Part shown: in pieces, positions 5,199-16,474 of the stretch | How the letters are laid out: every line of letters begins with the position of its first letter | Numbering within the stretch: position 1 is the stretch's first letter | Source: an uncultured Gammaproteobacteria bacterium | GTDB lineage: Bacteria; Pseudomonadota; Gammaproteobacteria; CAWCPV01 | Length of the DNA: 64,000 nucleotides | Assembly (NCBI GenBank): GCA_963797555.1 | Contig: CAWCPV010000003.1 | Span: 128,001-192,000 of the forward strand | Direction of reading: 5' to 3' | Translations under genes and position numbers: made by a program | The notes under the pieces: generated by a model | Told to the model about the DNA's origin: nothing | Databases searched by the model: none | The model's input: the letters and a program-made list of their open reading frames with translations, nothing else

Positions 5199-5316
5199 CC
5201 AGAATGGCCGCGGGCGAAATTACGCTCAAAGCCTGGCCCAAAGCCCTTTATCCTCAACGCGATAATTGAACGGAGATGCGGTCGCTGCGGTGTAGCCCAT
5301 GGGCTACACTATCTTA

Positions 5317-5607
5317 GTGCTCGAAGTCCGGCAGACGGATGACTATGCACGGTGGTTCAGCGGCTTACGTGACCGACAGGCGCGGGCGCGCATCGATGCG
5401 CGTATTCGCCGTTTGTCGCTGGGCAATCCCGGCGACGTTAGACCGGTGGGCGAAGGCGTGTCGGAGCTGCGCATCGACTACGGCCCGGGCTATCGGGTCT
5501 ATTTCGTGCAGCGCGGCCGCGAGCTGGTAATCCTGCTCGCAGGGGGCGACAAGGGTACCCAGGACCGAGATATCCAGACCGCGCTGGAGCTGGCGCGCCG
5601 ACTCTAG
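5317..5607 (+). CDS. Addiction-module killer protein (RelE/HigB-like toxin)
   Basis: GNPGDVRPVGEGVSELRIDYGPGYRVYF...LLAGGDK signature; lies upstream of an HTH antidote gene. Confidence 0.9.
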   Translation: MLEVRQTDDYARWFSGLRDRQARARIDARIRRLSLGNPGDVRPVGEGVSELRIDYGPGYRVYFVQRGRELVILLAGGDKGTQDRDIQTALELARRL

Positions 5608-5616
5608 GAGACTGAG

Positions 5617-5955
5617 ATGGAACAGTACAAACTGGAAACCAGGCCGTGGGATGTGGCGGAGCACCTGGAAACCGAGGCGGACATGGCCGCCTACCTCGAG
5701 GCCGTGCTGGAGGAGGGCAACCCGGCGCTGGTCACGGCCGCGCTCGGCGACATCGCGCGCGCCAAGGGCATGACCCAGATCGCCCGCGAAACGGGCCTGA
5801 CGCGTGAGAGCCTTTACAAGGCGCTGTCCCCCGAGGGCAACCCTGAATTCGCCACGGTGCTGAAGGTAGTCCGGGCACTGGGGCTGCGGCTGCACGCCAC
5901 GGCCGCTGCCGGTGTGTCCGCGCCGCCAGCGAAGGGCACCGGGCCATCGGTCTGA
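5617..5955 (+). CDS. Addiction-module antidote protein (HTH antitoxin)
   Basis: ALGDIARAKGMTQIARETGLTRESLYKALSPEGNPEFATV signature; starts 9 nt after the toxin. Confidence 0.9.
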   Translation: MEQYKLETRPWDVAEHLETEADMAAYLEAVLEEGNPALVTAALGDIARAKGMTQIARETGLTRESLYKALSPEGNPEFATVLKVVRALGLRLHATAAAGVSAPPAKGTGPSV

Positions 5956-6104
5956 AAACCGGGCCAACTCGGCGTCCCCCAAGCGCGATTCATCCCCGAG
6001 CCCACGTCGGGTGTCAGTTCGCATATGACGGCTGATGCCTGAAGGGCGATCCGCGGCACGAACTATTGGTCGGCAGGCTGCGTAGAACCGCCCGGGATCC
6101 CGGC

Positions 6105-6370
6105 AGCACCGAGCAGGGCCGGCGCCGCAAGAAGATCCGCCGCTTCAAGGACGACCCGCAGTGCTCGAAGGAGTGCTCGCACACCGATCGAGATTGATCA
6201 CCACGTCGGCTGAACCTCCAGGTCGCCCCACGCTGCCCGAGTCGGTGGACAGGAACAGCCGCGACGGCGCACAGGCGGACAGCGAAGAGCAGGCGAGGGA
6301 GTTGCTCGATGCGGGGTACACCGTCCTGGACCATGTCGGCGGTGAACTGGAGAGGGCAGCCCGGGCCTAG
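6105..6370. pseudogene. Scrambled remnant of a second copy of the SNF2 helicase gene
   Basis: 6105-6164 matches 4086-4145. 6165-6261 matches 4307-4327 and 4146-4221 in reverse complement. 6262-6370 resembles 5090-5198. Confidence 0.85.
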
Positions 6371-6596
6371 CAGATCCGGCCGTGTCAGCGGGCTCGCGCC
6401 AATCCATGTCTGTCAGGCCCGTGGCAAGCCACCTTTCCGGAGGGGACATCTTGGCTTCCAAGCCATGTCGCCCGTGCCTGGCTAGGGGGAAAGGAGCCCT
6501 AGCGGGTACCTGTCCCACGGAATGGAACCACGGTGCACATATCCAGGTCCTGAGCTGATGTGGCGCTCCCCCGCAAGCGGTGTTCCGTTGCCTGGT

Positions 6597-6992
6597 CTAG
6601 ACCCAAGTCTCCAGGGTCAATCCTGGCACGTTCTCGAAATGCCGCGCGTTGTTGCTTACCAACGTCGCACCAAGGCCGAGCGCGTGTGCGGCGATCAGCA
6701 TGTCCATGCAGCCGATGGGCGTGCCGCTCCGTTCCAGCGCGGTGCGCAGGCGGCCGTATCGGTCGGCGGCAGCCTCATCCCAGGGGATTACGCGGACCCG
6801 GCTGGCAAAATCGTCCACCTCAGCGCGGATCTCGGCACCTCTCGGGTGCCGCGCCGCACCGTAATAAAGCGCCGCGAGGACCACCGACGAGATCGCCAGA
6901 TTCTCCGTACCCACCCGGTCGAACTGAACCTTGACGGACGGGGGGCGCTTGCGCAGCACGTAGCTGCAGACGTCCGTATCGAGCATCCACAT
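6597..6992 (-). CDS. vapC: VapC PIN-domain toxin
   Basis: MLDTDVCSY...IGCMDMLIAAHAL...LVSNNARHF PIN motifs; overlaps the antitoxin stop. Confidence 0.92.
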   Translation of the reverse strand: MWMLDTDVCSYVLRKRPPSVKVQFDRVGTENLAISSVVLAALYYGAARHPRGAEIRAEVDDFASRVRVIPWDEAAADRYGRLRTALERSGTPIGCMDMLIAAHALGLGATLVSNNARHFENVPGLTLETWV

Positions 6993-7222
6993 CAGAACAG
7001 CCCCCGCGCCTTGGGCGGCGGGTCGCGGCGGTCAGTGAGGAAATCGTCGGGCACACTCGACGGCCGTGAAAAGAAGTCTTCCCAGCCCTGCGGCTTGGAC
7101 CGCAAGATGACCTTGTCACCGTCCCGCTCGATGTAGACTTCGTCGCCGTCGAAGCGGAACTCGGCCGGCAGCCGCACCGCCTGGCTGCGGCCGTTCATGA
7201 ACAGCTTCGCTGTGCGCGGCAT
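6992..7222 (-). CDS. vapB: VapB (AbrB/VagC-type) antitoxin
   Basis: [20 protein letters not shown] signature; ATG at 7222. Confidence 0.92.
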
Positions 7223-7429
7223 CGAATGCGTCCTCCCAGATTGATATAGACCGTAGTATATATTAGCCAAGGCGAATCTTTACGCCGGCTGGCCCGCGGG
7301 GATGGCTGCGGAAACTCATCACGGTGAAGTATCGGGCCCCCACGCCGCCAGGCGGTTGCAAGGTTCTCTCCGGGGCCGAATTAGCCAGAAAATGGTTCAA
7401 GACCTTTGGTTATAGGCGACCCGTGACTC

Positions 7430-9502
7430 TCACATCTTCAGGTCATCCAGAAACTCGGATGCCGGCTCCACGCCGGTGACGAGCAGGTCATCGCGGGCTC
7501 GGGTGCAGGCGACGTACAGCAGATGTCGCTCGGTGTCGTAGACCTCTTCCAGATCGGCATCATCGGCCACGGTCTCGATACGCGCCTGTAGCGGAATGAC
7601 CTCGTCGTCACAGGCCATCACCGCCACCGCTTTGAACTCCAGTCCTTTGACCAGATGCATGGTGCTGACCGAAAGCTGACCACTGACCGTTTCCACGTGC
7701 TCGTCCAGCACCTTGGACGGCAATCCGGCCTGGGCCGCCGCCGCGCGGGCGCGGTCCAGCTCCGCGTCCGATCGAACGAATACTCCGATCTCATGAGGTG
7801 CCATCCCCTCGTGACCGCGCTCTGCCAGCCAGGCGCCGACCGCGCTGATCTCCTCCTCTTGGCTGTCGAAGGTGCGGATTTGAGGGGCCGGCCCGTTGAA
7901 CAGCGACACCGTGCCGCGCCGTTCCTCGGCATTGCCGTCCACATCGGATAGCTCCGGCCCCAGCAGGCGGTCGGCCTGCATCCGGATCTGATGCGAGGTG
8001 CGGTAGTTGACGTGCAGGGTGCGCGAGCGCCCGCGTATATCCACGCCGAGCGACTTCCACGAAAAGGGTTGCTGGAAGATGCGCTGGCCGAGATCGCCCG
8101 CGAAGAACAGGCCGTTCGTTCGATCCGCCCCGAGCGCGGCGAGGAAACGCAACTCCGCGACGCCGACATCCTGCGCTTCATCTACCACGACGTGCTCGAA
8201 GGGCGGATGTTCGCGGTCGGCCAACCGGGCGGCCAGGCGGGTGAACAGGCCCGAGTGAGTGATGATGCCTTCAGCCTTCAGGCGTGCACGCACGGCATCG
8301 AAGACGGACCAGACTGCTGCCCGCTGCGGCTCCGGCAGGCGCGTTTTCCTGCCCAAGCGCTTGACGTTGCGATAGGCCTCCCAGCTCTCCACCTGCCACG
8401 CATCCACCAGTTCCTCCCACTCGGCCACTAAGAAATTGAGGTTGAACCTCTGACCGCCGACCTCTGCCGCGGCCTCCGCCAGTCGCTGCCGAATCATGTC
8501 GCGGGAGGCGATGCGCGGGCGGCCGAAGTGGCGCTCGTAGAGCCGCTCACCGATGGCGTTCGTGGCATGCACCTCCAGGCGCTCGGCCAGGCGCGGCTCG
8601 TTGCTGATCAAGCGCCTGAGTTTGGTGCGCAGCGCATTCGCCAGAGCGTCGGAGAAGGTGGTCAGCAGCACGCGGGCTTCGGGATGGCTGCGAGCGAGAA
8701 ACACCGCCCGGTGCAGAGCGACGATGGTCTTGCCCGTACCCGCCGAGCCGGAGACGCGCGCCGGGCCGCTGTAGTCGCGCTCCACCCACTGGCGCTGCGC
8801 GGGGTGGAGAAAGACCATCCACTTCTCCCACGGAAACGCCAGCGCGCGCTCCAGCTCCTCGATGTCGCTCATTACCCGGAAGCGGCGCTGAGCGTCCGGG
8901 TGACTGTAGGGGTCGGCGCCCGCGGCAACGGGTTGGCTGACCTGCGGCCTGCCGCCCGTGGCCAACTCCAGCAGAGCCTCGGCCGCCTCGGCGGGCAAAT
9001 GGTCGGCGATTGCCAGCAGGCTGTCTTCGTCGGCCTGGCGTACGTCGCCCAGCCACTCTGCCGGCACACCGTAGCTCAGCAGCTCATCGTCGGTGCGATG
9101 CGCGAACAGAAGCGGCTCGGCAGGGGCAGGTCGCGGAACCTCGATGTACTTCGGTACGGCGACCTCCTCCACCCGCTCGCGGATCTCCACCCACTGTGCC
9201 GCCCCGGTCTTGAAGTGGGTTTCCAGCTTGCGGCGGTTCGCCCACTCGTACGCCTCGTCGTGGTGATCGACGTAGCACAGCAGCAGGCTGTGCTCGGTCC
9301 TGTGCACGATGAGCCGAATATCACTGCTCACCCGCACCGACCAGAAGTTCTTGTCCCTGGCCTTGTCCAGCTTGTGGAAGCTCAGGCCCGGACCCGCGGG
9401 GTTCAGTTGCAGGTCGAAGGCCGTGGTCTTGACCGCCTTCTGCTCCTCGCCGGTGAGCTTGGCGAGGCTGTCGGTAAAGGTGTCGGAGATGCGGAAATTC
9501 AT
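7430..9502 (-). CDS. UvrD-like SF1 helicase with N-terminal RelE-like domain
   Basis: GSAGTGKT, VVDEAQD, GDLGQRIF, NYRT, KGLEF and YVACTRAR motifs. The N-terminal ~90 aa (LSFHKL...WSVRVSSDIRLI) resemble RelE/ParE. Confidence 0.88.
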   Translation of the reverse strand: MNFRISDTFTDSLAKLTGEEQKAVKTTAFDLQLNPAGPGLSFHKLDKARDKNFWSVRVSSDIRLIVHRTEHSLLLCYVDHHDEAYEWANRRKLETHFKTGAAQWVEIRERVEEVAVPKYIEVPRPAPAEPLLFAHRTDDELLSYGVPAEWLGDVRQADEDSLLAIADHLPAEAAEALLELATGGRPQVSQPVAAGADPYSHPDAQRRFRVMSDIEELERALAFPWEKWMVFLHPAQRQWVERDYSGPARVSGSAGTGKTIVALHRAVFLARSHPEARVLLTTFSDALANALRTKLRRLISNEPRLAERLEVHATNAIGERLYERHFGRPRIASRDMIRQRLAEAAAEVGGQRFNLNFLVAEWEELVDAWQVESWEAYRNVKRLGRKTRLPEPQRAAVWSVFDAVRARLKAEGIITHSGLFTRLAARLADREHPPFEHVVVDEAQDVGVAELRFLAALGADRTNGLFFAGDLGQRIFQQPFSWKSLGVDIRGRSRTLHVNYRTSHQIRMQADRLLGPELSDVDGNAEERRGTVSLFNGPAPQIRTFDSQEEEISAVGAWLAERGHEGMAPHEIGVFVRSDAELDRARAAAAQAGLPSKVLDEHVETVSGQLSVSTMHLVKGLEFKAVAVMACDDEVIPLQARIETVADDADLEEVYDTERHLLYVACTRARDDLLVTGVEPASEFLDDLKM

Positions 9503-9506
9503 CGGG

Positions 9507-9923
9507 CTACCGGCGCATGTACGAAAAGCGCGGAGCCATTCTCTGTGCCTGATCCATCCAGAAGTGCTTCAGCTCACTGTCCGGAAGATCGCGCGAGTCG
9601 TGCCAGCCTATGATGTTGGCGTCCTGAGGGTACGGTTTGCCGTCCGCGTCAAACCCCAGACCGATTGCAAACACCGCTTCGGCAGGGCCGACGCCGCGGC
9701 CAATTGCCGGCCTTGGTGCGTGTTTGTCAAAGTACGTCGAGCAGATTTCCCAAACCTGTGCCTCGGTCAGGTGCTGCGACCGGCAAACCGATGTCTCCAG
9801 TCTTCCGTTAGGCATCTTGTCTCGGCGCCGGGGCATCAGGCGTGAATAGTGAATCGAGTTGGTTCTCTTGACCACGTGTTCGGGCCGAAACACAAAGGTG
9901 CTTAACGATTCATCAGGCTGCAC
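9507..9923 (-). CDS. Hypothetical protein, third gene of the TIGR04255 cassette (start uncertain; in-frame GTG at 9923)
   Basis: Open frame overlapping the stop of the upstream gene; contains LETSVCR...DANIIGW. Confidence 0.6.
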   Translation of the reverse strand: MQPDESLSTFVFRPEHVVKRTNSIHYSRLMPRRRDKMPNGRLETSVCRSQHLTEAQVWEICSTYFDKHAPRPAIGRGVGPAEAVFAIGLGFDADGKPYPQDANIIGWHDSRDLPDSELKHFWMDQAQRMAPRFSYMRR

Positions 9924-10461
9924 GTCTGACGGCAGCAAGCGCGTAGAGCCGGCCAACGTATCGGACCACATCGTCAAGAGACTCTTCAAGAGCGCTGCGA
10001 CTCGTCGCATCAATTGACTGCCAGGCATGAATCCCTCCCTCGCTCCCAAACTGACCGGCAAAATTGATCTTTCCGTGTTCGCCAACGCTCACAGAAAACA
10101 TCCGAGTGGTGTCGACCGACCAACTTATGCAGATCTCCCCGTCGAATTCGGGTATCAGATCCGGCGCTGGTGTGCCTTTCGGGAGCAAAGCGAACAAAGT
10201 CGCGGCGATTCTTGCCGCAAGATTTATCGTGTGGTCCGTGACAGGAACCGCTCCACCACTGTCCCAGTCGGCATTGCGGCACTCATTGCCTATGCCACCC
10301 AACGCTGCCTCAATAGTCGGGAGCCAATCCGATGCGCTTCTACTCAGGTAGTTTCGTTCCTTTTCCCATGAGCGCTGAATCGCGCGGCTACCGTCGCTGA
10401 CGGGCTCATAGTCGTCGTTATCGATTAGATGCAAACCCTGCATCGCGATCGCAGTGCTCAT
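9913..10461 (-). CDS. Hypothetical protein
   Basis: 182-aa ORF with an ATGA overlap with the upstream gene; contains ADWDSGGAVP...PDLIPEFDGEICISW. Confidence 0.7.
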   Translation of the reverse strand: MSTAIAMQGLHLIDNDDYEPVSDGSRAIQRSWEKERNYLSRSASDWLPTIEAALGGIGNECRNADWDSGGAVPVTDHTINLAARIAATLFALLPKGTPAPDLIPEFDGEICISWSVDTTRMFSVSVGEHGKINFAGQFGSEGGIHAWQSIDATSRSALEESLDDVVRYVGRLYALAAVRRAA

Positions 10462-11207
10462 TCGTACAACTCGGCTGACGCCTCAGTGATGCTGCTGAAG
10501 AAGGTACGATTTTTCAGTTCCCGCAGGCGTTCAAGAATTTTCCACAGCCGTCCGTCCGTTGAAACCAAATCAGTCACCATGAATGCATCAACATCCAGAA
10601 TTACCGGCGCCGGCCCCGTCGGTGGAGTCGTCTCGAGCGCCAACGTTAAATTCACACGGGCGGTGCTTTCGACTTCGACCAACTGGAATCGCTGAAAAAA
10701 CGATGCCACAGCCTGTGGAGCTTCGTCTGGAACATCCACCAGCTTGCGAAGATAAGTCTGGTACGAGCCCCCCTGCCGCAAGGGGAGTTGAAGATTGTTG
10801 ATGAAACGCGTGGCGACCCGAGTCACACGCACCGGCCCGAGTCGCTCCGCGTAGACCGCCCAGACGCGCCTTGTCTCTTCGACCAATCTGCTCCACTCCT
10901 CGTACGGCGGCAGTCGACTCAGCGTGAACCCCGAAAGCCGGCACTGGGCGACGTACTTTTCATCCAACGAATGTAACCGCAACCCCACCTGCGCGGACTC
11001 GGCGGTGCTCTCCGGCTGCTGCCCGTCGGATGTCAGCTTAAAACCGAAAAAGCCCTGCGAAATCGGATTCTTCAGGTAGTAGCCGAAATCCGGCGTGCCA
11101 AATGCTTCCTTCAGTCCAGCAAAGGTGAGGTCGTGGCGTGGGACCACGTGAATATCGATCAGCGCTTCCGTGATCGGTGCATTCGGCAGATGTCGCTGCC
11201 TAGCCAT
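10458..11207 (-). CDS. TIGR04255-family protein
   Basis: Family pattern LPNAPITEALIDI...LPPYEEW...RVATRFIN...ILDVD...LRELKNRTFF. Confidence 0.8.
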   Translation of the reverse strand: MARQRHLPNAPITEALIDIHVVPRHDLTFAGLKEAFGTPDFGYYLKNPISQGFFGFKLTSDGQQPESTAESAQVGLRLHSLDEKYVAQCRLSGFTLSRLPPYEEWSRLVEETRRVWAVYAERLGPVRVTRVATRFINNLQLPLRQGGSYQTYLRKLVDVPDEAPQAVASFFQRFQLVEVESTARVNLTLALETTPPTGPAPVILDVDAFMVTDLVSTDGRLWKILERLRELKNRTFFSSITEASAELYE

Positions 11208-11308
11208 GACTTGACCGGCTGGGCCGGCTCCAGCGTCTGAGATTGCGACACCAATTTACCGCAGTCCGCCTCGGTGTCCGGTGAGGAACTGGGGAGAGAT
11301 CCACTACG

Positions 11309-14300
11309 TTAAACACGAAACACCTTCATCACCTCATCCCCCAGGTGATTGATGACCTTCACCGCGATCCGCCCCGACTTCGGCTTGTCGAAGGGCCGGG
11401 AAGTGTCGCTGTTGAGCGTGGCCCAGGCGTCTTCGTTGATCTCGGCTTTGAGGGTGGTCTTGAGCGCCTTGTAGGGGTCGTTGGCGCCGAGGAAGTAGGC
11501 GTGGCGGACGAAGAAGGCTTCCATGTTGTAGTCGGTGTCGATGAACCAGCAGGCGATGCCTTCGGCACCGTCGCTGCGGACTTCGCCGGTGTTGGGGTGG
11601 AAGACGTCCACGCCGTGGACGGTGACCTGTGACTTGTGGTCTGTGGTCAGTGAAAGCGGGAAATCTGCGGCGCTCAGGCTCTGGAGCGCAGCGAGCGTTT
11701 GAGTCCGTTGAGCATTCGACCAACGTCCGCCGCCTGAGCCTGTAACAGGGCAATTTTTTCCTGTGTGACCATCCCGAGTCTTTCCGCCAGTATCAAAAAC
11801 GTCTCTGTCTCCGCCAGAGAGCCGCTGGCGATCCCCAGGAACTGGAGAAACTCCCCTGTTCCCGACCGTTCCGCTCCCTCCGCGATATTCGCTGCTATCG
11901 ATACTGCCGCCCGCCTGATCTGGCTGGTCAGACCGTATTTCTCTTCCGGCGGGAACTGAGCAGAGACGCGATAGACCCTCTCGGCCAGCTCGATTGATTT
12001 CTTCCAAACTTCCAAGTCCTGATAGCTCTTTAACGTACTCATAATTCGCAACCATCCCGCCGTTTCTAGCCACTAACCACTGCCCACTGGTCACCGTAAT
12101 GTCCGGCTCGCCGAAGATGACGAAGAGGTTGCCCTTGCCGGTGTTCTTGAGGTCGTCGGCCATGTGCAGGTCGGCGTTCATGCGCGCCTTGAGCACGGGG
12201 ATGCGGCCGAGGTTCTTGAAGTCCGAGGAATGCGCGTCGTAGTTGAAGGCGCAGGCGATGAGCACGTCGAAGCCGGCATCGCCGGCCTCGCGGGCAGCGG
12301 CGACCAGATCGGGGCGCGAGACGGTGCCGAACTCGGGGCCGATGAAGATTCCAGCACGGTATCCCGAGCGGGAATCGGTGGCCTGTGACCCGTGGTCGGT
12401 GCTGGAATCAGTGGCTAGTGACTTGTGGTCGGTGGCTTGTCTTTCTCCGCTAACCACTGGCCACTGGTCACTGACCACTGTCCCAGCGGTGGTCTGTGGC
12501 CCGTGGTCAGTGGCTTGTATTGGTTTTTCCCTAATCACCGACCACTGGTCACTGGCCACTGTCCCAACGGCGCAGACCAGCTCGCCCGGCCAGGGGGTGA
12601 GCGAGGTGAAGCTGATCTTGTCGTCCTTGTGCGCTTGCTGTACGCCCGCGGTCTTGAGATTCTCCAGGATGATCTGCACAAAGTCGCGCTCCTGGCCGTA
12701 ACCCTCCGTGGGCTCGGCCGCGGTGTCGATCAGCTCGTCGTTCTCGTCCACCGCCAGCACGCGGTGCGGCGACAGGCTCTCGACGGTGAACGGCCCGGCG
12801 ACGCGGACGATTCTCTTGTCCTCATACGGCTTGTCGTAGAGGTACTCGAACCCGGCCTTGGCGGCGATGGAGGCGTCGATCTCTTTCTGTCGCGCAATCC
12901 TCGCGCTCCAGAAAGCAGTGATCAGTGACTGAGTGGCTTGTGGCCAGTTAGTGGGACGTTCGCGCGGGATTTCCCATTCTTCCAGGGTTCTTTTCTGACC
13001 ACCGGCCACGGACAACTGATCACGGAGCGATGCGAGCGTTAGCTCGTAACGCTCCCAGATGACGTTGATCTCGGCGTTGTTGGCAATGGATTTTAGGGTG
13101 ATGTGCGGCACGCGCTCGTAGACGAAGCCCTGTCTCAGTGACTCGTGGCCAGTGACTTGCGGTTTGCTTTTCAGGTCACTAGCCACTGACCACCGACCAC
13201 TGATTTCCGCTTCCTTGATCTGCCCCTCGCGGCTGTCGGCGAGCAGGTAGTAGGGGTAGCGCGCGCCCATGATGCGCGCACGGGCCAGGGCGAGGGCGAC
13301 GCGGGAGGTGTCGATGGTGATCCAGCGGCGGCCCCATTGCTCGGCGACGTAGGCGGTGGTGCCGGAGCCGCACGTGGGGTCGAGGACGAGGTCGCCGGGG
13401 TCGGTGGCCATAAGCAGGCACCGTTGGACGACCTTTTCGGATGTTTCCACAACGTATCGCTTCTCCGAGGCGAAGCCCGCAATCCCGGTGTCGCTCCATA
13501 CGTTGTCCTCAGGGAATGCCGCGAAATCATCGAAGTAGCGAACGTAGTAGAGCCCCTTGCCGGTAGAGCTCAGCCGCCCGGCTAGCCGTAGGCGGGACAT
13601 TCCAAGCTCATTTGTCTTCCAGCGCACCTTCTCAGACGGTCGTAGCGTTTGGCCCTCAAACTGTACTGGGAACCAAGATGCAGCACCCTCGCCCTTATCG
13701 CGCCCGACGCTCTGGCTCGTAAGATTATCGATTCGAAACACACGAGCCCCGCTGGGAAGTAGTGACGTCCCCGCCAGTTCCTCTGGCGAAATGCTTCGTT
13801 CAGACAAGTCTGACAGACGAACGCGCTTGTACGCGCTGCCTCCGATGCCCCCAATCTGCTTCAGCATGAGCGGCTGGTGATATTTCAGCCGGTCCCGCTG
13901 CCTTGCATAGAACAGAAGGAACGTCATAGGTGCCGGCAAGGTACTCCGATGTAGCACTAGCCGTCTTCGCAAAAATTATTTGAGACACAAAACTTTCAGA
14001 ACCAAACACTTCGTCCAGCAAACTGCGCAGCACGTGTGAGTTCTCTTCGCCAATCTGCACGAATATCGATCCGGAATCCGCCAACAAATCCCTTGCCACT
14101 GTCAGCCGATCCCGCAGATAGGTCAGGTACGAGTGAATCCCATCCCGCCAGGTATCCCGAAACGCCTTGACCTGCTCCGGCTCGCGCGTGATGTGGTCGG
14201 GGTTGCCGTCCTTCACGTCGCGGCTGGTGGTGGACCACTGGAAGTTGGAGTTGAATTTGATGCCGTAGGGCGGATCGATATAGATGCACTGCACCTTGCC

Positions 14301-14813
14301 GCGCAGCCCTTCGCGCTCGGCCAAACTGGCCATCACTTGCAGGCTGTCGCCGAGGATCATGCGGTTGGACCAGTTCTGGTCGTGGCGGTAGAACTCGGTC
14401 CTGTCCACGCCCTCGGGGATGCCGTTGAAGTCCGCGAACAAGTCGAGCTGGCGCTCGACAGTGGCTAGTGGCTCGTGGTCAGTGGCCTGTTTTCCACTAG
14501 CCACTGCCCACTGCCCACTGGCCACTGATTGACGACGCAAGTCGTCAATCAAGACCTTCGGTTGGATCTTCTCCTGGATGTAGAGCGGCGGGGCCTGAAC
14601 GACGAGGTCGGACCAGTCCTGCTCGTCCTTGCCGCGCCAGACCAGTTGCGGGTCCAGGTCCCGGTTGCGGCGCTCGTAGGCGACGCGGATGGGGTCTTGC
14701 TCCTCCTTCCGCATCACCGACTGGTATTCGGCGGTGGGGATGTTCTTGCGCGTGGCTTCGTCGTGCTTGAGGGTCGCGACGGTCTTGCTGGTCGATGTCT
14801 GCCGCTTCGCCAT
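11309..14813 (-). CDS. mod: Type III restriction-modification DNA methyltransferase (Mod), with a +1 frameshift near 13923 and five repeat-derived segments
   Basis: ORF 13800-14813 has YIDPPYG (motif IV). ORF 11309-13972 has VLDPTCGSGTT (motif I) and ends GRIAVKVINHLGDEVMKVF. Removing one base at TATGAC(G)TTCCTT joins the two frames. Confidence 0.88.
11619..12097. mobile_element. IVS-like element: heptamer-repeat inverted arms enclosing the four-helix-bundle gene
   Basis: Perfect terminal inverted repeat ACGGTGACC (11619-11627) / GGTCACCGT (12089-12097), extended inward to ~32 bp by 7-nt-periodic imperfect pairing. Confidence 0.7.
11674..12042 (-). CDS. Four-helix-bundle protein (23S rRNA intervening-sequence protein / Avd-like) nested inside mod in another frame
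   Basis: SYQDLEVWKKSIELAERVY...FPPEEKYGLTSQIRRAAVSIAANIAEG...FLGIASGSLAETET is the characteristic family signature; ATG at 12042. Confidence 0.93.
   Translation of the reverse strand: MSTLKSYQDLEVWKKSIELAERVYRVSAQFPPEEKYGLTSQIRRAAVSIAANIAEGAERSGTGEFLQFLGIASGSLAETETFLILAERLGMVTQEKIALLQAQAADVGRMLNGLKRSLRSRA
12376..12566. repeat. Two tandem heptamer-repeat hairpins plus one unpaired arm, in frame within mod
   Basis: Hairpins at 12408-12480 and 12484-12561; direct repeat CCACTGGTCACTG(A/G)CCACTGTCCCA at 12461 and 12542. Confidence 0.9.
12918..13023. repeat. Heptamer-repeat inverted arms bracketing the EWEIPRE codons of mod
   Basis: GTGATCAGT (12918-12926) / ACTGATCAC (13015-13023) with GTGG/CCAC units inside. 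Confidence 0.8.
13135..13203. repeat. Heptamer-repeat hairpin within mod
   Basis: TCAGTGACTCGTGGCCAGTGAC...GTCACTAGCCACTGACCACCGACCACTGA. Confidence 0.88.
14459..14527. repeat. Heptamer-repeat hairpin within mod
   Basis: CAGTGGCTAGTGGCTCGTGGTCAGTGG-loop-CCACTAGCCACTGCCCACTGCCCACTGGCCACTG. Confidence 0.9.
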
Positions 14814-14833
14814 GTCGCTCCGGGTTCTCCCGA

Positions 14834-14869
14834 TGTCGGGTTACGGCCTGACGGCCTAGCCCGACCTAC
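14834..14869 (-). repeat. GTAG-type REP-like palindrome
   Basis: Minus strand reads GTAGGTCGGGCTAGGCCGTCAGGCCGTAACCCGACA, a GTAG tetramer followed by a hairpin, between genes. Confidence 0.65.
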
Positions 14870-15129
14870 TTCTTCTCCCGATAGACTTCACCGCGGCGGC
14901 CTACCTTGACGGTCCCCACCAGCAGTTCAGCATCCGAGACGCTGTAAAGAACGCGGTAGTTGCCCTGCCGCACACGGTAACGCTCCTGCGCGGAGAGCTG
15001 TTCGCTTCCGAGCGGACGCGGATCGTCGCGCAAGCTTTCGATACACGCGAGGATGCGCCGCGCATCCGCGCGGGGAATGCCGCGCAGGTCCTTGGCCACC
15101 GATGGCTTGACCCGCAGATCATAGCGTAC
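14866..15129 (-). pseudogene. RelE/ParE toxin lacking its start codon and antitoxin
   Basis: YDLRVKPSVAKDLRGIP...DDPRP...YRVRQGNYRVLYSV...VKVGRRGEVYR; joined directly to the res remnant. Confidence 0.8.
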
Positions 15130-15241
15130 GGCGTTCGATGATCCGCTGGGTCGGCTGGCCCTGCTCGTCGAGCTCCCAGTAACGAGCCGGATACTCGTAA
15201 GGAGAGTTGAGGATGGGCTGTTCGAAGAACTTGTTGTCCAT
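15119..15241 (-). pseudogene. res: N-terminal ~38 codons of a Type III restriction endonuclease (Res)
   Basis: MDNKFFEQPILNSPYEYPARYWELDEQGQPTQRIIERR is the typical N-terminus of the Res partners of this Mod family. It stops abruptly. Confidence 0.75.
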
Positions 15242-15458
15242 GTGTGGTATTTCTCTGATGGGCCGTACTGTCCCCAGCCCAAAGAGAAGGAGGTCACCCT
15301 TAGCCTTCCGTTCTTCTGTTCCGCGAGCGTACGAGATGGATCTCGGCAAGACCGTCTTAGGCCGCGTCGCCGGCTGCACAGCATCGAGTATGCTGGTAAT
15401 TACGCTCCCGCAAATCGGGCTTCGGCCCTTCTACCACCTCGCGCTTCACCCTTCCCCG

Positions 15459-15880
15459 TCACTCTTTGAACGGGTTCTCGATGATCAGTCCGTCGATCCG
15501 CTGGCCATGCTGCAGGTCTTCGCTGTAGAGCCGGGTACATCCGGCGTCGAGGGCGGCGGCGATGATCAGGGCGTCGTAGAAACCGTAGCGGTAGCGCGCC
15601 TGGATATCGAGGGCGCGGTGATAAAGCCCCTGGCTGGGCCATGATGCGCCACAACGGCACGAGCACTTGGTCCATGAAACGCCGCGCGTCTTCCGGGGTT
15701 GCCGGCGTTTCGAGCTTGCGGGTGATGACATGAGGGTTTCCTGAATCACCTGGAAGCTGATACCGGCTGTACCGGTTTCCAGCGCCGAGTAGATCAGTTG
15801 TTCTGAGGTCTGGCGTTGCGGGGGTCGGTCTCGTCGAACAGGTAGAGGAAGACGTTGGAGTCGATGAACTCACCGCTCAT
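15459..15880 (-). pseudogene. PIN-domain toxin, frameshifted
   Basis: Three frames together give EFIDSNVFLYLFD...VIQETL...FYDALIIAAALDAGCTRLYSEDLQHGQ...NPF. Confidence 0.8.
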
Positions 15881-16094
15881 TCATCTCGTCCCGAGTAAAC
15901 TTGCGCCCACCCGTGCGTACATAGTCCCGCAGGCGCTCCACCACGGCCATCGCCTCATCGGCCCGCTGCTTGCGCTGGCCGTAATCGGCGAGCCAGCGCC
16001 GGAACTGCTCGTTGAGCGTGGTATGCTCGGCGCGCGCGCGCTTGCGGGCCGCCTCGATGAGCTTCTCGTCGGCGCTCAGCGTGATGTTTTTCAT
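15870..16094 (-). CDS. Antitoxin (RHH-like) partner of the PIN toxin
   Basis: MKNITLSADEKLIEAAR...TTLNEQFRRWL...GRKFTRDEMNER; overlaps the toxin start. Confidence 0.8.
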   Translation of the reverse strand: MKNITLSADEKLIEAARKRARAEHTTLNEQFRRWLADYGQRKQRADEAMAVVERLRDYVRTGGRKFTRDEMNER

Positions 16095-16474
16095 GGCTCG
16101 GACCTCTCGGTGAATTCGAACACGAGCGCAGTGTACACGATTGCCGCGTGCACTCAGCGCGGGGTGCCTCGTTCTCGACCCAGGCGGCGATCATGGGGGT
16201 GCGACTCAGCCTCGATCCGATAGGCTTCGGCGATCTCAGCGCAAGCCCAGCCGCCGTGATAGCGCAGGTTGCTCACGCCCGGCACCCAGTAGGTCTCCAT
16301 AGTGGCCTGCTTCTGTCGCTTCTCCTCGTATCCAGAGAAATCGAGCCATGAATTGCGGGTGACGGCTGCTTTGGGAACGCGGGGCAGGCGGCATCACGCC
16401 ACATCATGCGGCCGCGCGGGATCGGGCGGCACCCCCAGAGGGCGACGACCGCTGAGCGCAGGCCCCCTTCGTCT

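What the first reader, a model, noticed from the sequence alone, without database searches (positions are those of the whole stretch)
11619..12097. Dual-coding insert: the host frame stays open for ~160 codons across the nested gene
Seen: the four-helix-bundle ORF (11674-12042) is on the same strand as mod but in a shifted frame, and it looks lower in GC than its surroundings. The mod frame has no stop through it, between GEPDI and HGVDVFHP. From my recollection of homologs this linker is only about 15 aa. The arms themselves encode plausible native residues (DITV...QVTVHG), and removing exactly 479 nt would shift the frame, so simple precise excision does not obviously restore the gene. Inference: either selection keeps read-through so that the conserved Mod C-terminus is still made, or the ~32-bp stem allows bypass or processing at an internal position.
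Basis: partly seen in the sequence, partly recalled or inferred. Interest (0 to 1): 0.8.

Follow-up and report, generated by a model that had tools for sequence, protein, structure and literature searches.

The report
Gene nested inside a readable methylase gene
A small mobile cassette carrying its own four-helix-bundle gene sits inside a DNA-methylase gene, and its sequence is kept free of stop codons in the methylase's reading frame, so about 120 codons of DNA are read in two frames in many bacterial phyla.

Summary
Both genes are on the minus strand. The insert is 480 nt (11618-12097), not 479. This copy of mod has a 1-nt frameshift further upstream, near 13920.

The window alone is weak evidence. 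The mod frame has 0 stops in 160 codons against 4-8 in the other frames, and synonymous permutation gives P=0.06.

The family evidence is decisive:
- The same PF05635 cassette lies at the same site of the same type III-like Mod, with exactly 480 nt, in 58 of 80 related loci from many phyla.
- The Mod frame is stop-free in 58 of 59 copies, where 7 of 59 are expected.
- T at the 4HB third codon position before AA/AG/GA codons occurs 1/1735 times, against 839/5459 elsewhere.
- The Mod C-terminus after the insert evolves under purifying selection.
- All 25 PF05635 genes that are not nested in an ORF, out of an unbiased sample of 28, have 1-12 stops in that frame.

Bypass is not needed.

The cassette looks like a 23S-rRNA intervening sequence that has moved into a protein-coding gene. 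It has a 4HB ORF between inverted heptamer-repeat arms. The same architecture occurs in two other host genes. I found no description of it in print.

The parts
11618..12097 (-). The insert: 480 nt (160 mod-frame codons) between ...GEPDI and HGVDVFHP.... It replaces the 14-aa linker of insert-free orthologs.
   Evidence: alignment with G001/G039 orthologs. (the same 480-nt gap in 58 of 80 related loci). (0 stops in the mod frame).
11674..12042 (-). Nested four-helix-bundle gene (PF05635 / TIGR02436): 122 codons plus TGA, in the frame one base downstream of mod.
   Evidence: The ORF is intact in 57 of 59 copies and begins with ATG in 57 of 59. Variation is concentrated at its third codon positions: column conservation 0.855/0.898/0.677.
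12071..12095 (-). Upstream arm: imperfect tandem heptamers (AGTGGYC type), read in the mod frame as ..VTSGQWLVA..
   Evidence: It pairs with the downstream arm in the single-sequence fold and in the consensus fold (alignment columns 13-37).
11621..11645 (-). Downstream arm: the complementary heptamers, altered so that TGA never falls in the mod frame. It reads ..LTTDHKSQVTV..
   Evidence: alignment columns 463-487. In one search, 94.4% of cells are paired, against 23-59% when the partner is slid by 1-3 columns, and 42 cells change on both sides against 25.1 in shuffles (0 of 500 shuffles as high).
11992..12033 (-). 4HB codons 4-17, where synonymous sites are nearly invariant and the mod-frame peptide (VKELSGLGSLEEINR type) is conserved. 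Both frames appear to be constrained here.
   Evidence: synonymous-codon conservation is 0.87 in codons 1-15 against 0.59-0.71 elsewhere; free-standing relatives L064 and L073 encode the same 4HB residues with other codons (35-37 of 44 nt identical).
11309..11617 (-). Mod C-terminal 102 codons plus stop, downstream of the insert and in frame with it.
   Evidence: mostly 81-97% aa identity to the other insert-bearing loci, with a few divergent ones at 63-70%. (purifying selection, 0 stops in 56 sequences).
12098..13972 (-). Mod ORF upstream of the insert. It holds the PF01555 catalytic motif region, the target-recognition region and the C-terminal extension.
   Evidence: A full-length insert-bearing homolog, P0125, matches PADLOC MTase_III PDLC03632 at E=0.
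13800..14813 (-). Mod N-terminal ORF. It is joined to the ORF above only through a 1-nt frameshift near 13918-13922 (an extra G after ...TATGAC, not in a repeat).
   Evidence: Orthologs read straight through.
12368..12570 (-). Composite of short heptamer hairpins without an ORF, in frame in mod (..VASDQWSV...ATDH.. about 60 extra residues). Absent from the G001 ortholog.
13131..13211 (-). Short heptamer hairpin, in frame in mod (..SGRWSVASDLKSKPQVTGHES..).
14451..14536 (-). Short heptamer hairpin, in frame in the mod N-terminal part (..VASGQWAVASGKQATDHEPLAT..).

Best explanation
The insert is a self-contained cassette of the same build as the intervening sequences of 23S rRNA genes. It has a roughly 120-codon four-helix-bundle (PF05635) gene bounded by inverted arms made of tandem heptamers. 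Here it sits in a protein-coding gene, in a loop of the C-terminal extension of a horizontally spread type III-like Mod methyltransferase.

Shown by comparison:
- The cassette is kept 'translationally transparent'. Its length is fixed at 480 nt.
- Every position where a T at a 4HB third codon position would create TAA, TAG or TGA in the Mod frame avoids T.
- The downstream arm departs from perfect complementarity exactly where a TGA would otherwise fall in frame.
- The Mod C-terminus downstream is under purifying selection.
- Only this relative frame can be cleared of stops by synonymous changes in the 4HB gene. That fits the finding that all nested copies use it.

Inferred: ribosomes read Mod straight through, giving a protein with 160 residues where relatives have a 14-residue linker. 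The ends of this extra segment (arm-encoded strands plus a conserved helical segment) are constrained, and the middle roughly 77 residues are unconstrained.

Inferred: the 4HB protein is made separately from its own ATG in the other frame. How it is initiated is unknown, because the Shine-Dalgarno-like motif is weak and distant.

Inferred: the arms act as a hairpin. Whether that happens at the RNA level (an RNase III site, as in rRNA intervening sequences) or at the DNA level (mobility or recombination) is open.

In this window the host system is probably already decaying. Mod is frameshifted upstream and res is reduced to remnants, so the open frame here is most likely inherited.
For: (1) Same architecture elsewhere. 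A search with the 4HB protein in one genome per species returned 80 loci from many phyla. In 75 of 80 the same relative frame is open across the 4HB gene. Both Mod flanks were found in 68 of 80. The gap is exactly 480 nt in the 58 loci used together with the window.

(2) Stops in the 59 inserts. The Mod frame has 0 stops in 58 and 1 in L075. The third frame has 2-13 and the opposite strand 1-11.

(3) T at third positions. The count is 1/1735 at junctions where T would create a stop, against 839/5459 elsewhere. Synonymous permutation expects 7.0 of 59 to be stop-free, and 58 are.

(4) Selection on the 4HB frame. Column conservation by codon position is 0.855/0.898/0.677, and mean aa identity is 0.713. 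The Mod frame (0.479) is no better conserved than the third frame (0.470).

(5) Selection on Mod after the insert. Codon-position conservation is 0.919/0.952/0.692, 69% of differing codons are synonymous, and there are 0 stops in 56 sequences.

(6) Null samples. Of 28 PF05635 genes drawn from 151 genomes of the same class, only L094 (Mod-nested, in an unpublished genome) and L103 (nested in a DUF1156 methylase) are stop-free in this frame. The other 26 have 1-12 stops. The free-standing close relatives L043, L064, L073 and L089 have 2-5.

(7) Independent hosts show the same signature. L103 has T at third positions 0/24 against 21/93, with P0=0.034. L051, nested in an M28/LysM protein, has 0/31 against 15/94.

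(8) Gene callers already read through. 248 protein clusters of about 1070-1170 aa contain the Mod-frame translation of the insert.

(9) The arms. 94.4% of cells are paired, with modest covariation.
Against: - There is no direct evidence of translation. No proteomics were available. The RNA-library runs found hold only small shares of the stretch, as assembled contigs, and most of those are insert-free relatives. One contig bridges the Mod C-terminus and the 4HB gene, which does not show a single transcript.
- This copy of mod has an upstream frameshift. Its res gene is reduced to remnants.
- About 12 of the 80 loci also have a broken Mod upstream.
- A Shine-Dalgarno-like motif upstream of the 4HB ATG is found in 49 of 59 (GGGAG in only 32), at 12-14 nt or more. 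The window has none. Separate initiation of 4HB is therefore unproven.
- The loci are related, so counts across them are not fully independent. Mean pairwise nt identity in the 4HB part is 0.73.
- The structure model is poor overall (mean pLDDT 47.5).
Confidence: 0.8

Rival explanations
1. RNA-level removal or bypass. The long-range stem lets RNase III or another activity cut the cassette out of the mRNA, or lets ribosomes hop from arm to arm, so Mod is made without translating the insert.
For: The arms keep their complementarity across 59 sequences. The window RNA folds with the arms paired (z -2.46). The architecture matches 23S rRNA intervening sequences, which RNase III excises (PMC4990558, abstract read).
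Against: Bypass or excision would not need an open frame or a length divisible by three, yet both are under strong selection. There is no in-frame stop at a take-off site. Bacteria are not known to re-ligate mRNA after RNase III cleavage (established knowledge). The RNA-library contigs whose joint lies next to the insert boundaries (11620/12099) carry the 40-letter native linker of relatives, not a spliced form.
Confidence: 0.05
2. The stem is a regulatory or processing site that works alongside read-through. When the arms pair, the mRNA is cleaved. Mod expression then falls and a short 4HB mRNA is released. When ribosomes translate through, the stem stays open and Mod is made.
For: Arm complementarity is conserved. 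The Shine-Dalgarno-like motif for 4HB is weak and distant, so another route to initiation is plausible. RNase III excision of the rRNA counterpart is documented (PMC4990558, abstract).
Against: Nothing tested here speaks to cleavage. The covariation is modest, and related sequences can beat shuffles without any structure (caveat). The arms could equally act in DNA.
Confidence: 0.3
3. In this window the open frame is a relic. The restriction-modification system is decaying and nothing selects for read-through here any more.
For: There is a 1-nt frameshift near 13920. Of the BPTD_3080-family res gene, only residues 1-34 (window 15125-15226) and 921-964 (16208-16336) remain, with toxin-antitoxin genes in between. 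Nine of the genome's 11 heptamer arrays of this type lie in this one gene, and its GC is below the genome's, which suggests acquisition from elsewhere.
Against: The frameshift could be an assembly error, since the genome is a 20-contig draft. Apart from it, both Mod ORFs and the 4HB ORF are intact. This reading concerns this copy only and does not conflict with the family-level conclusion.
Confidence: 0.5
4. The heptamer arms are a phase-variation device. Slippage by one 7-nt unit shifts the Mod frame and switches the methylase off and on, as simple repeats do in phase-variable type III mod genes.
For: Seven is not a multiple of three. In L024 and L042 the upstream arm is one heptamer shorter (gap 473 nt instead of 480) and the Mod frame is broken there. 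Further heptamer hairpins lie in mod.
Against: The units are imperfect copies, which slip poorly. Only 2 of 68 loci with both flanks show this. There are no within-population length data. The arms also flank PF05635 genes outside any ORF, so the repeats are a property of the cassette, not of mod.
Confidence: 0.12
5. Chance or base composition. In GC-rich DNA an alternative frame of 160 codons can stay open without selection.
For: For the window alone, P is only 0.061.
Against: 58 of 59 are stop-free against 7.0 expected. T at third positions is 1/1735 against 839/5459. None of the 25 un-nested PF05635 genes is stop-free in this frame, including 13 with GC of 0.50 or more.
Confidence: 0.01

Closest known systems
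Intervening sequences (IVS) of 23S rRNA genes that carry an S23p/PF05635 ORF (Coxiella, Leptospira and others)
   Same: A cassette of roughly 430-480 nt. A PF05635 four-helix-bundle ORF in sense orientation. Terminal inverted repeats that pair into a long-range stem. Insertion inside a host gene, and spread by horizontal transfer (PMC4990558, abstract read: a 428-nt selfish element in helix 45 with an S23p ORF, excised by RNase III).
   Different: The host is a protein-coding gene, not rRNA. The cassette is read through in a second frame that is kept stop-free. Its length is fixed at a multiple of three. RNase III processing was not tested here. That heptamer-array arms are typical of rRNA IVS was not checked.
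Rickettsia palindromic elements and other MITE-like repeats inserted in frame in ORFs
   Same: Palindromic selfish DNA that sits inside ORFs in frame and is translated as an extra segment tolerated by the host protein (PMC10969869, passages read). The short heptamer hairpins elsewhere in this mod gene behave in the same way.
   Different: Those elements are about 150 bp and carry no gene of their own. This cassette carries an intact, conserved gene in a different frame, so the same DNA encodes two proteins over about 122 codons.
Same-strand nested genes in bacteria, such as comS inside srfA of Bacillus subtilis (recalled; no call)
   Same: A small gene in a shifted frame wholly inside a large ORF on the same strand.
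   Different: The nested gene here arrived as a mobile cassette with inverted arms. It is about 2.5 times longer and is conserved with its host site across many phyla.
Phase-variable type III mod genes (phasevarions; PMC11475388 seen only in a search listing)
   Same: Repeat tracts inside a type III mod ORF whose unit length is not a multiple of three. Two loci differ by one unit and are out of frame.
   Different: The repeats are imperfect, arranged as two inverted arms, and belong to the cassette. No population-level switching has been shown.
Avd of diversity-generating retroelements
   Same: The same fold family. PF22296 bAvd scores E 6.7e-8 (33.4 bits, below its 40-bit cut-off) and NF033474 scores E 1.8e-7.
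   Different: The NF033474 score is 31.4 bits against a cut-off of 80. No reverse transcriptase was seen among the neighbouring ORFs scanned.

Membership tests
PF05635 / TIGR02436 four-helix-bundle protein (23S rRNA-intervening sequence protein) | Profile match above the curated cut-off over the full domain | tested here: met
   PF05635: 136.7 bits against 33.8, profile positions 1-106 of 106. TIGR02436: 130.1 bits against 24.
PF05635 / TIGR02436 four-helix-bundle protein | Intact ORF of about 110-130 codons under purifying selection | tested here: met
   122 codons in the window. Intact in 57 of 59 copies. Variation is concentrated at third positions.
23S rRNA intervening sequence element | Located in helix 25 or 45 of a 23S rRNA gene | tested here: not met
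   It lies inside a protein-coding mod ORF. No rRNA match was found in 11300-14900.
23S rRNA intervening sequence element | Terminal inverted repeats that form a stem around a PF05635 ORF | tested here: met
23S rRNA intervening sequence element | Excision from the transcript by RNase III | not testable with these tools
   Only assembled contigs of RNA libraries were available.
Type III restriction-modification Mod subunit | N6/N4 methyltransferase domain and a type III Mod profile | tested here: met
   PF01555 in both window ORFs. The full-length homolog P0125 matches PADLOC MTase_III PDLC03632 at E=0, 1372.6 bits. The insert-free ortholog matches EcoP15I Mod 4zcf_A at E 1.9e-15 in its N-terminal part.
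Type III restriction-modification system | Intact mod ORF with an adjacent res gene | tested here: not met
   Mod is split by a 1-nt frameshift. Only remnants of a BPTD_3080-family res lie beside it.
DGR accessory protein Avd | Equivalog score for NF033474 | tested here: not met
   31.4 bits against a cut-off of 80.
DGR accessory protein Avd | Adjacent reverse transcriptase and template/variable repeats | not tested
   No RT domain was found among the 10 neighbouring ORFs scanned. Repeats were not searched for.
Intein | Same-frame insert with splicing and homing-endonuclease domains | tested here: not met
   The Mod-frame translation of the insert has no significant Pfam match in any of 5 copies: none in 3, and only chance-level hits (E 0.06-0.34, none an intein or endonuclease domain) in 2. 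The recognisable gene is in another frame.
Programmed translational bypass (T4 gene 60 type) | In-frame stop after a take-off codon, with a matching landing codon | tested here: not met
   There is no stop in the Mod frame anywhere in the 160 codons.
In-frame palindromic elements (RPE-like) | Palindromic insert inside an ORF that keeps the host frame | tested here: met
   True of the 4HB cassette and of three further hairpin sites in this mod. Sequence relation to the Rickettsia families was not tested.
Phase-variable mod (phasevarion) | Repeat-number polymorphism that switches the frame | tested here: inconclusive
   2 of 68 loci have an arm one heptamer shorter and are out of frame. There are no within-population data.

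The most novel reading that the evidence does not exclude
PF05635 genes bounded by inverted arrays of tandem heptamers may be a widespread class of mobile cassette. The rRNA 'intervening sequences' would then be only one landing site. When such a cassette lands in an ORF, mainly the DNA methylases of defence systems, it survives by becoming translationally transparent: the one frame that can be cleared of stops by synonymous changes is kept open. That would create a two-frame coding region of about 122 codons, among the longest conserved ones I know of in bacteria. At its 5' end both reading frames appear to be selected for their peptides. The arms and the 4HB protein may together form a switch between making Mod and making 4HB, through cleavage of the hairpin or 7-nt slippage. 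The methylase would then be regulated by its own passenger.
Probability: 0.35. Interest if true: 0.9.

Novelty: new variant of a known kind. Interest (0 to 1): 0.8.

Why it matters
Long overlapping genes on the same strand are rare and often disputed in bacteria. In this case both frames carry clear and different signatures of selection: one is selected for its amino-acid sequence and the other for staying open. The case is replicated in hundreds of divergent copies and in three unrelated host genes.

It also shows how a selfish cassette can live inside an essential part of a host gene without destroying it. It links the long-unexplained '23S rRNA intervening sequence protein' family to restriction-modification genes. 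Any carrier that can be grown offers a direct way to test what these four-helix-bundle proteins and their heptamer hairpins do.

For annotation, public records name the roughly 1,070-1,170-aa proteins simply as DNA methyltransferases. The names shown there give no hint of the nested gene or of the foreign 146 residues.

Tried and rejected
- **Composition or chance** as the cause of the open frame: rejected.
- **The Mod-frame insert as a known protein domain**: no significant Pfam match in 5 copies at E up to 10. A helix-hairpin-helix look of the conserved peptide was only a recollection and found no support, so I dropped it.
- **Known RNA families**: Rfam on 11300-14900 gave only sub-threshold hairpin look-alikes, all far below their gathering scores.
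- **RNA evidence**: the runs found hold at most 0.09 of the sampled words, all as contigs. Laid at 80% likeness they are mostly insert-free relatives. One contig bridges Mod and 4HB. This shows neither transcription nor processing.
- **Structure**: the AlphaFold2 model of the 349-aa Mod segment is poor (mean pLDDT 47.5, 42 close relatives as the alignment). I use only the contrast between confident ends and a disordered middle, and I ran no fold search on it.
- **Co-divergence of 4HB and Mod flanks**: the Mantel test was weak (r=0.11; 221 of 2000 permutations as high). The comparison was gapless and at least one pair (L018/L020) was misaligned, so I draw nothing from it.
- **Single or repeated origin**: the Mod tree needs 9 (FastTree, 227 rows) or 3 (IQ-TREE quick, 63 rows drawn at random from the 227) changes of insert state, of which at least 2 are forced by well-supported branches. 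The insert-free rows were the 120 nearest to one ortholog and no root is known, so gain, loss and allelic recombination cannot be told apart. I did not run an AU test.
- **Plasmids**: only distant (<60% identity) cyanobacterial homologs, none Mod-nested. Phage and viral collections were not searched.
- **Literature**: eight full-text searches found nothing on a PF05635 gene nested in a methyltransferase gene or on its heptamer arms. Subscription journals and supplementary files were not visible, so 'not found' is not 'not in print'.
- **Not used**: complex prediction, because I do not claim that 4HB binds Mod.
Full report
**1. What is in the window**

The mod gene and the nested gene both lie on the minus strand. 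The nested ORF, 11674-12051(-) with its ATG at 12042, is in the frame one base downstream.

- The nested product is a clear member of PF05635 (23S rRNA-intervening sequence protein; E 4e-40, 136.7 bits) and of TIGR02436 'four helix bundle protein'.
- The host ORFs carry PF01555.
- A full-length insert-bearing homolog matches the PADLOC type III methyltransferase profile PDLC03632 at E=0.
- The N-terminal part of an insert-free ortholog resembles EcoP15I Mod.
- The C-terminal roughly 440 residues, where the insert lies, have no solved relative by sequence.

**2. The boundaries of the insert**

Two uninterrupted orthologs read GEPDI-(14 residues)-[N]GVDVFHP: G001, and G039, which is unpublished. 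In a set of database proteins the anchor-to-anchor distance is 15 residues in 119 of 119 insert-free proteins and 161 in 105 of 108 insert-bearing ones.

In the window the stretch between GEPDI and HGVDVF is 11618-12097, which is 480 nt or 160 codons. The insertion is not a clean addition either. About nine linker residues are replaced, and the arm ends (DITV... / ...QVTVHG) stand where the native strands DITLL / VKVNG stand.

GC of the insert is 0.566, against 0.61-0.65 in the flanks and about 0.65 for the genome's contigs.

**3. Is the open frame more than chance?**

Within the window the Mod frame has 0 stops. The other five frames have 4-8. I permuted synonymous codons within the 4HB gene, which keeps its protein and its codon usage. 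This gives 0 stops in the Mod frame in 6.1% of trials. T at the third position is 0/30 at junctions where it would create a stop, against 16/95 elsewhere. Alone this is suggestive, not decisive.

**4. Comparative evidence**

A search with the 4HB protein in one genome per species returned 80 loci at 59-88% aa identity (tblastn). The record titles name many phyla, among them Nitrosomonadales, Methylococcales, Bacillota, Nitrospirota, Chloroflexota, Poribacteria, Verrucomicrobiota, Planctomycetota, Acidobacteriota and Cyanobacteria.

- In 75 of 80 the same relative frame is open across the whole 4HB match. It usually runs to the upstream edge of the locus and about 365-371 nt downstream, the same distance as in the window.
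- Both Mod flanks are present in 68 of 80. The gap is exactly 480 nt in the 58 loci I could use without adjustment.
- In these 58 plus the window, the Mod frame has 0 stops in 58 and one in L075. The third frame has 2-13 stops and the opposite strand 1-11.
- T at 4HB third positions before AA-, AG- or GA-initial codons occurs 1/1735 times, against 839/5459 elsewhere.
- Synonymous permutation predicts 7.0 stop-free sequences of 59, and 58 are observed.

The sequences are related, but mean pairwise nucleotide identity in the 4HB part is 0.73, with most change at 4HB third positions. Many independent substitutions have therefore been filtered.

**5. Which frame is selected for what**

- Column conservation by 4HB codon position is 0.855/0.898/0.677, and mean aa identity in that frame is 0.713.
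- The Mod frame (0.479) is no better conserved than the third, non-coding frame (0.470).
- Over most of the insert, then, the 4HB frame is selected for its protein and the Mod frame only for staying open.
- Downstream of the insert the Mod C-terminus shows 0.919/0.952/0.692, 69% of differing codons are synonymous, and there are no stops in 56 sequences. It must therefore be translated in frame in the insert-bearing lineages.
- The 4HB ORF is intact in 57 of 59 copies and starts with ATG in 57 of 59.

One stretch departs from this picture. In 4HB codons 1-15 synonymous codons are 0.87 conserved, against 0.59-0.71 elsewhere, and the Mod-frame peptide there is conserved. The free-standing relatives L064 and L073 encode the same 4HB residues with other codons. 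The sample is small, but it suggests a second constraint specific to nested copies.

The AlphaFold2 model is poor overall (mean pLDDT 47.5). It gives its only confident parts (81-87) to the arm-encoded strands, which pair as a long ribbon, and to helices at both ends of the insert. The middle roughly 77 residues score about 25.

**6.

I drew an unbiased sample of PF05635 genes from 151 genomes of the same class and could score 28 of them.

- The host-like frame is stop-free in only two. L094 is a Mod-nested copy in an unpublished genome. L103 is a different 4HB gene nested in a DUF1156/D12-type methylase, with its own, different arms.
- The other 26 have 1-12 stops. One of them, L095, is the Mod-nested copy that is also L075.
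- The other shifted frame has at least one stop in all 28.
- Four close free-standing relatives of the window's gene have 2-5 stops.

So the alternative frame is not usually open in this family, and nested copies do not routinely truncate their hosts.

The same avoidance of T at third positions is seen in L103 (0/24 against 21/93; P0=0.034) and in L051, which is nested in a protein of more than 1,783 aa with M28 and LysM domains (0/31 against 15/94).

The fixed relative frame has a simple reason, which is inference from the genetic code. Stops in this frame need a T at a 4HB third position, which synonymous change can remove. Stops in the other shifted frame involve second positions.

**7. The arms**

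Both arms are imperfect tandem heptamers: AGTGGYC on the coding strand upstream, and its complement downstream.

- A perfect complement (GACCACT)n would put a TGA in every frame once per 21 nt. This follows directly from the sequence.
- In the nested copies only the first unit keeps CTGA, out of frame. Later units read CACAGAC, CACCGAC, CACTGGT or CACAAGT. This produces the internal loop in the stem.
- Even so, the two helices (7 and 9 pairs) are paired in 94.4% of cells, against 23-59% when the partner is slid. There are 42 double-change cells against 25.1 in shuffles, with 0 of 500 shuffles as high. The tool warns that related sequences can reach this without any structure.
- Nine of the 11 arrays of this heptamer type in the 5.3-Mb genome lie in this one gene.
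- Three further short hairpins of the same kind, without an ORF, sit in frame elsewhere in mod and are absent from the G001 ortholog.
- Among 58 related loci such extra arrays are present in 29 and not detected in 29, at recurring positions.
- Arms of this build are general to the family. Of 31 other PF05635 genes, 24 are flanked by inverted repeats (z>4) that show 7-nt periodicity in nearly every case, with a different heptamer in each genome. A Nostoc plasmid copy has (GTAGGGA)n ... (TCCCTAC)n.

**8. How it most likely works**

Shown by comparison: the cassette is fixed at one loop of Mod, and both the 4HB protein and the openness of the Mod frame are under selection.

Inferred: Mod is translated straight through, with 160 residues in place of the 14-residue linker, and 4HB is translated separately.

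How 4HB is initiated is unclear. A Shine-Dalgarno-like motif is present in 49 of 59 copies (GGGAG in only 32), at 12-14 nt or more, and the window has none.

What the hairpin does is open. It could be an RNase III site as in rRNA intervening sequences (PMC4990558, abstract), a signal for DNA-level mobility or recombination, or a slippage switch. L024 and L042 lack one heptamer in the upstream arm and are out of frame. In L057, and apparently in L047, part of Mod upstream of the cassette has been deleted; in L057 the breakpoint lies at the cassette's upstream arm.

**9. History**

248 clusters carry the read-through insert, and the names shown for them are plain methyltransferase names such as 'adenine-specific DNA-methyltransferase'.

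On Mod trees built without the insert columns, the insert state is clustered but needs at least 2 changes across well-supported branches. Sampling and rooting do not allow gain, loss and allelic recombination to be told apart.

**10. This copy**

Mod is split by one extra base near 13920, outside any repeat. Of the neighbouring BPTD_3080-family res gene only residues 1-34 and 921-964 remain, with ParE- and PIN-domain genes in between. Either the draft assembly is wrong at that base, or this system is decaying and the open frame is inherited.

**11. Comparison with what is known, and novelty**

The cassette works like a 23S rRNA intervening sequence, but it fails that family's defining location. 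It behaves like the in-frame palindromic elements of Rickettsia (PMC10969869, passages read), but it carries its own gene in another frame. It is not an intein, not an Avd by NCBI's cut-off, and not a bypass site.

Eight literature searches found no description of it.

I rate it a new variant of a known kind, of high interest.

Noticed in passing
window 13900-13940 (-): The mod gene is split by a single extra base (G after ...TATGAC) that is not in a repeat. Orthologs read through at this point. It may be a real lesion or an assembly error.
   Followed up: partly
window 14866-16336 (-): Upstream of mod only two remnants of a BPTD_3080-family restriction endonuclease remain (profile residues 1-34 at 15125-15226 and 921-964 at 16208-16336). 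ParE-domain (14866-15384) and PIN-domain (15459-15749) ORFs lie between them. The restriction half of the system seems to have been lost.
   Followed up: partly
window 12368-12570, 13131-13211, 14451-14536 (-): Three further hairpins of the same heptamer type, without an ORF, sit in frame in mod. They add about 60, 8 and 10 residues at loops where the G001 ortholog has none. In 58 related loci such arrays are detected in 29 and not in 29, at recurring positions.
   Followed up: partly
L024 and L042 (upstream arm, about 2446-2475 in each locus): The upstream arm is one heptamer (7 nt) shorter than in the other loci, and the Mod frame is broken there. This is the kind of change slippage would make.
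   Followed up: partly
L057, L047: Part of Mod upstream of the cassette is missing. In L057 the sequence of an earlier Mod site runs directly into the upstream arm of the cassette, as if the arm had served as a deletion end point. In L047 the upstream arm itself is gone.
   Followed up: no
L091-L121 (31 PF05635 loci): 24 of 31 PF05635 genes from unrelated genomes are flanked by inverted repeats. In 23 of the 24 the arms have clear 7-nt periodicity (lag-7 identity 0.69-1.00, against 0.07-0.42 at other lags); L118 has none. Each uses a different heptamer (GGGAGTA, TCGGGAC, GTCGCAG, AGTGTTC, AATTAGG and others). Heptamer-array arms seem to be a general property of these cassettes.
   Followed up: partly
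L103:483-2696 (+): A different PF05635 gene, with GGAGTGA-type arms, is nested in a DUF1156/D12-type DNA methylase. The host frame is open for 1009 nt upstream and 875 nt downstream, and the avoidance of T at third positions is the same.
   Followed up: partly
L051:4-5352 (+): A close relative of the window's cassette is nested, with the host frame open, in a protein of more than 1,783 aa with M28 peptidase and LysM domains. Its usual ATG is replaced by ACG.
   Followed up: partly
L043:2380-3400 (+): Two identical tandem copies of the cassette lie in an intergenic region, separated and flanked by long heptamer arrays. The host-like frame has 4 stops in each.
   Followed up: no
window 11992-12033 (-): Synonymous sites of 4HB codons 4-17 are almost invariant in nested copies (TCA for Ser in 59 of 59; TTG for Leu in 97%). 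They vary in free-standing relatives. A second constraint acts here, either a Mod-frame peptide or an RNA signal.
   Followed up: partly
window 2355-11207: Downstream of mod lie a TIGR04255-family protein (10458-11207), two ORFs with no match in Pfam or PADLOC, a UvrD-type helicase with PADLOC NERD+UvrD/GajB-like hits (7430-9502), and an SNF2 helicase with ZorD/DpdE-like hits (2355-5198, + strand). The neighbourhood looks like a defence island. In related loci the genes after mod differ from locus to locus.
   Followed up: no
G000:C3:514855-515172 (-) (L117): A second PF05635 gene in the same genome, 49.6% identical. It is free-standing, with arms of a different heptamer (GTCGTCR) and 3 stops in the host-like frame.
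   Followed up: partly
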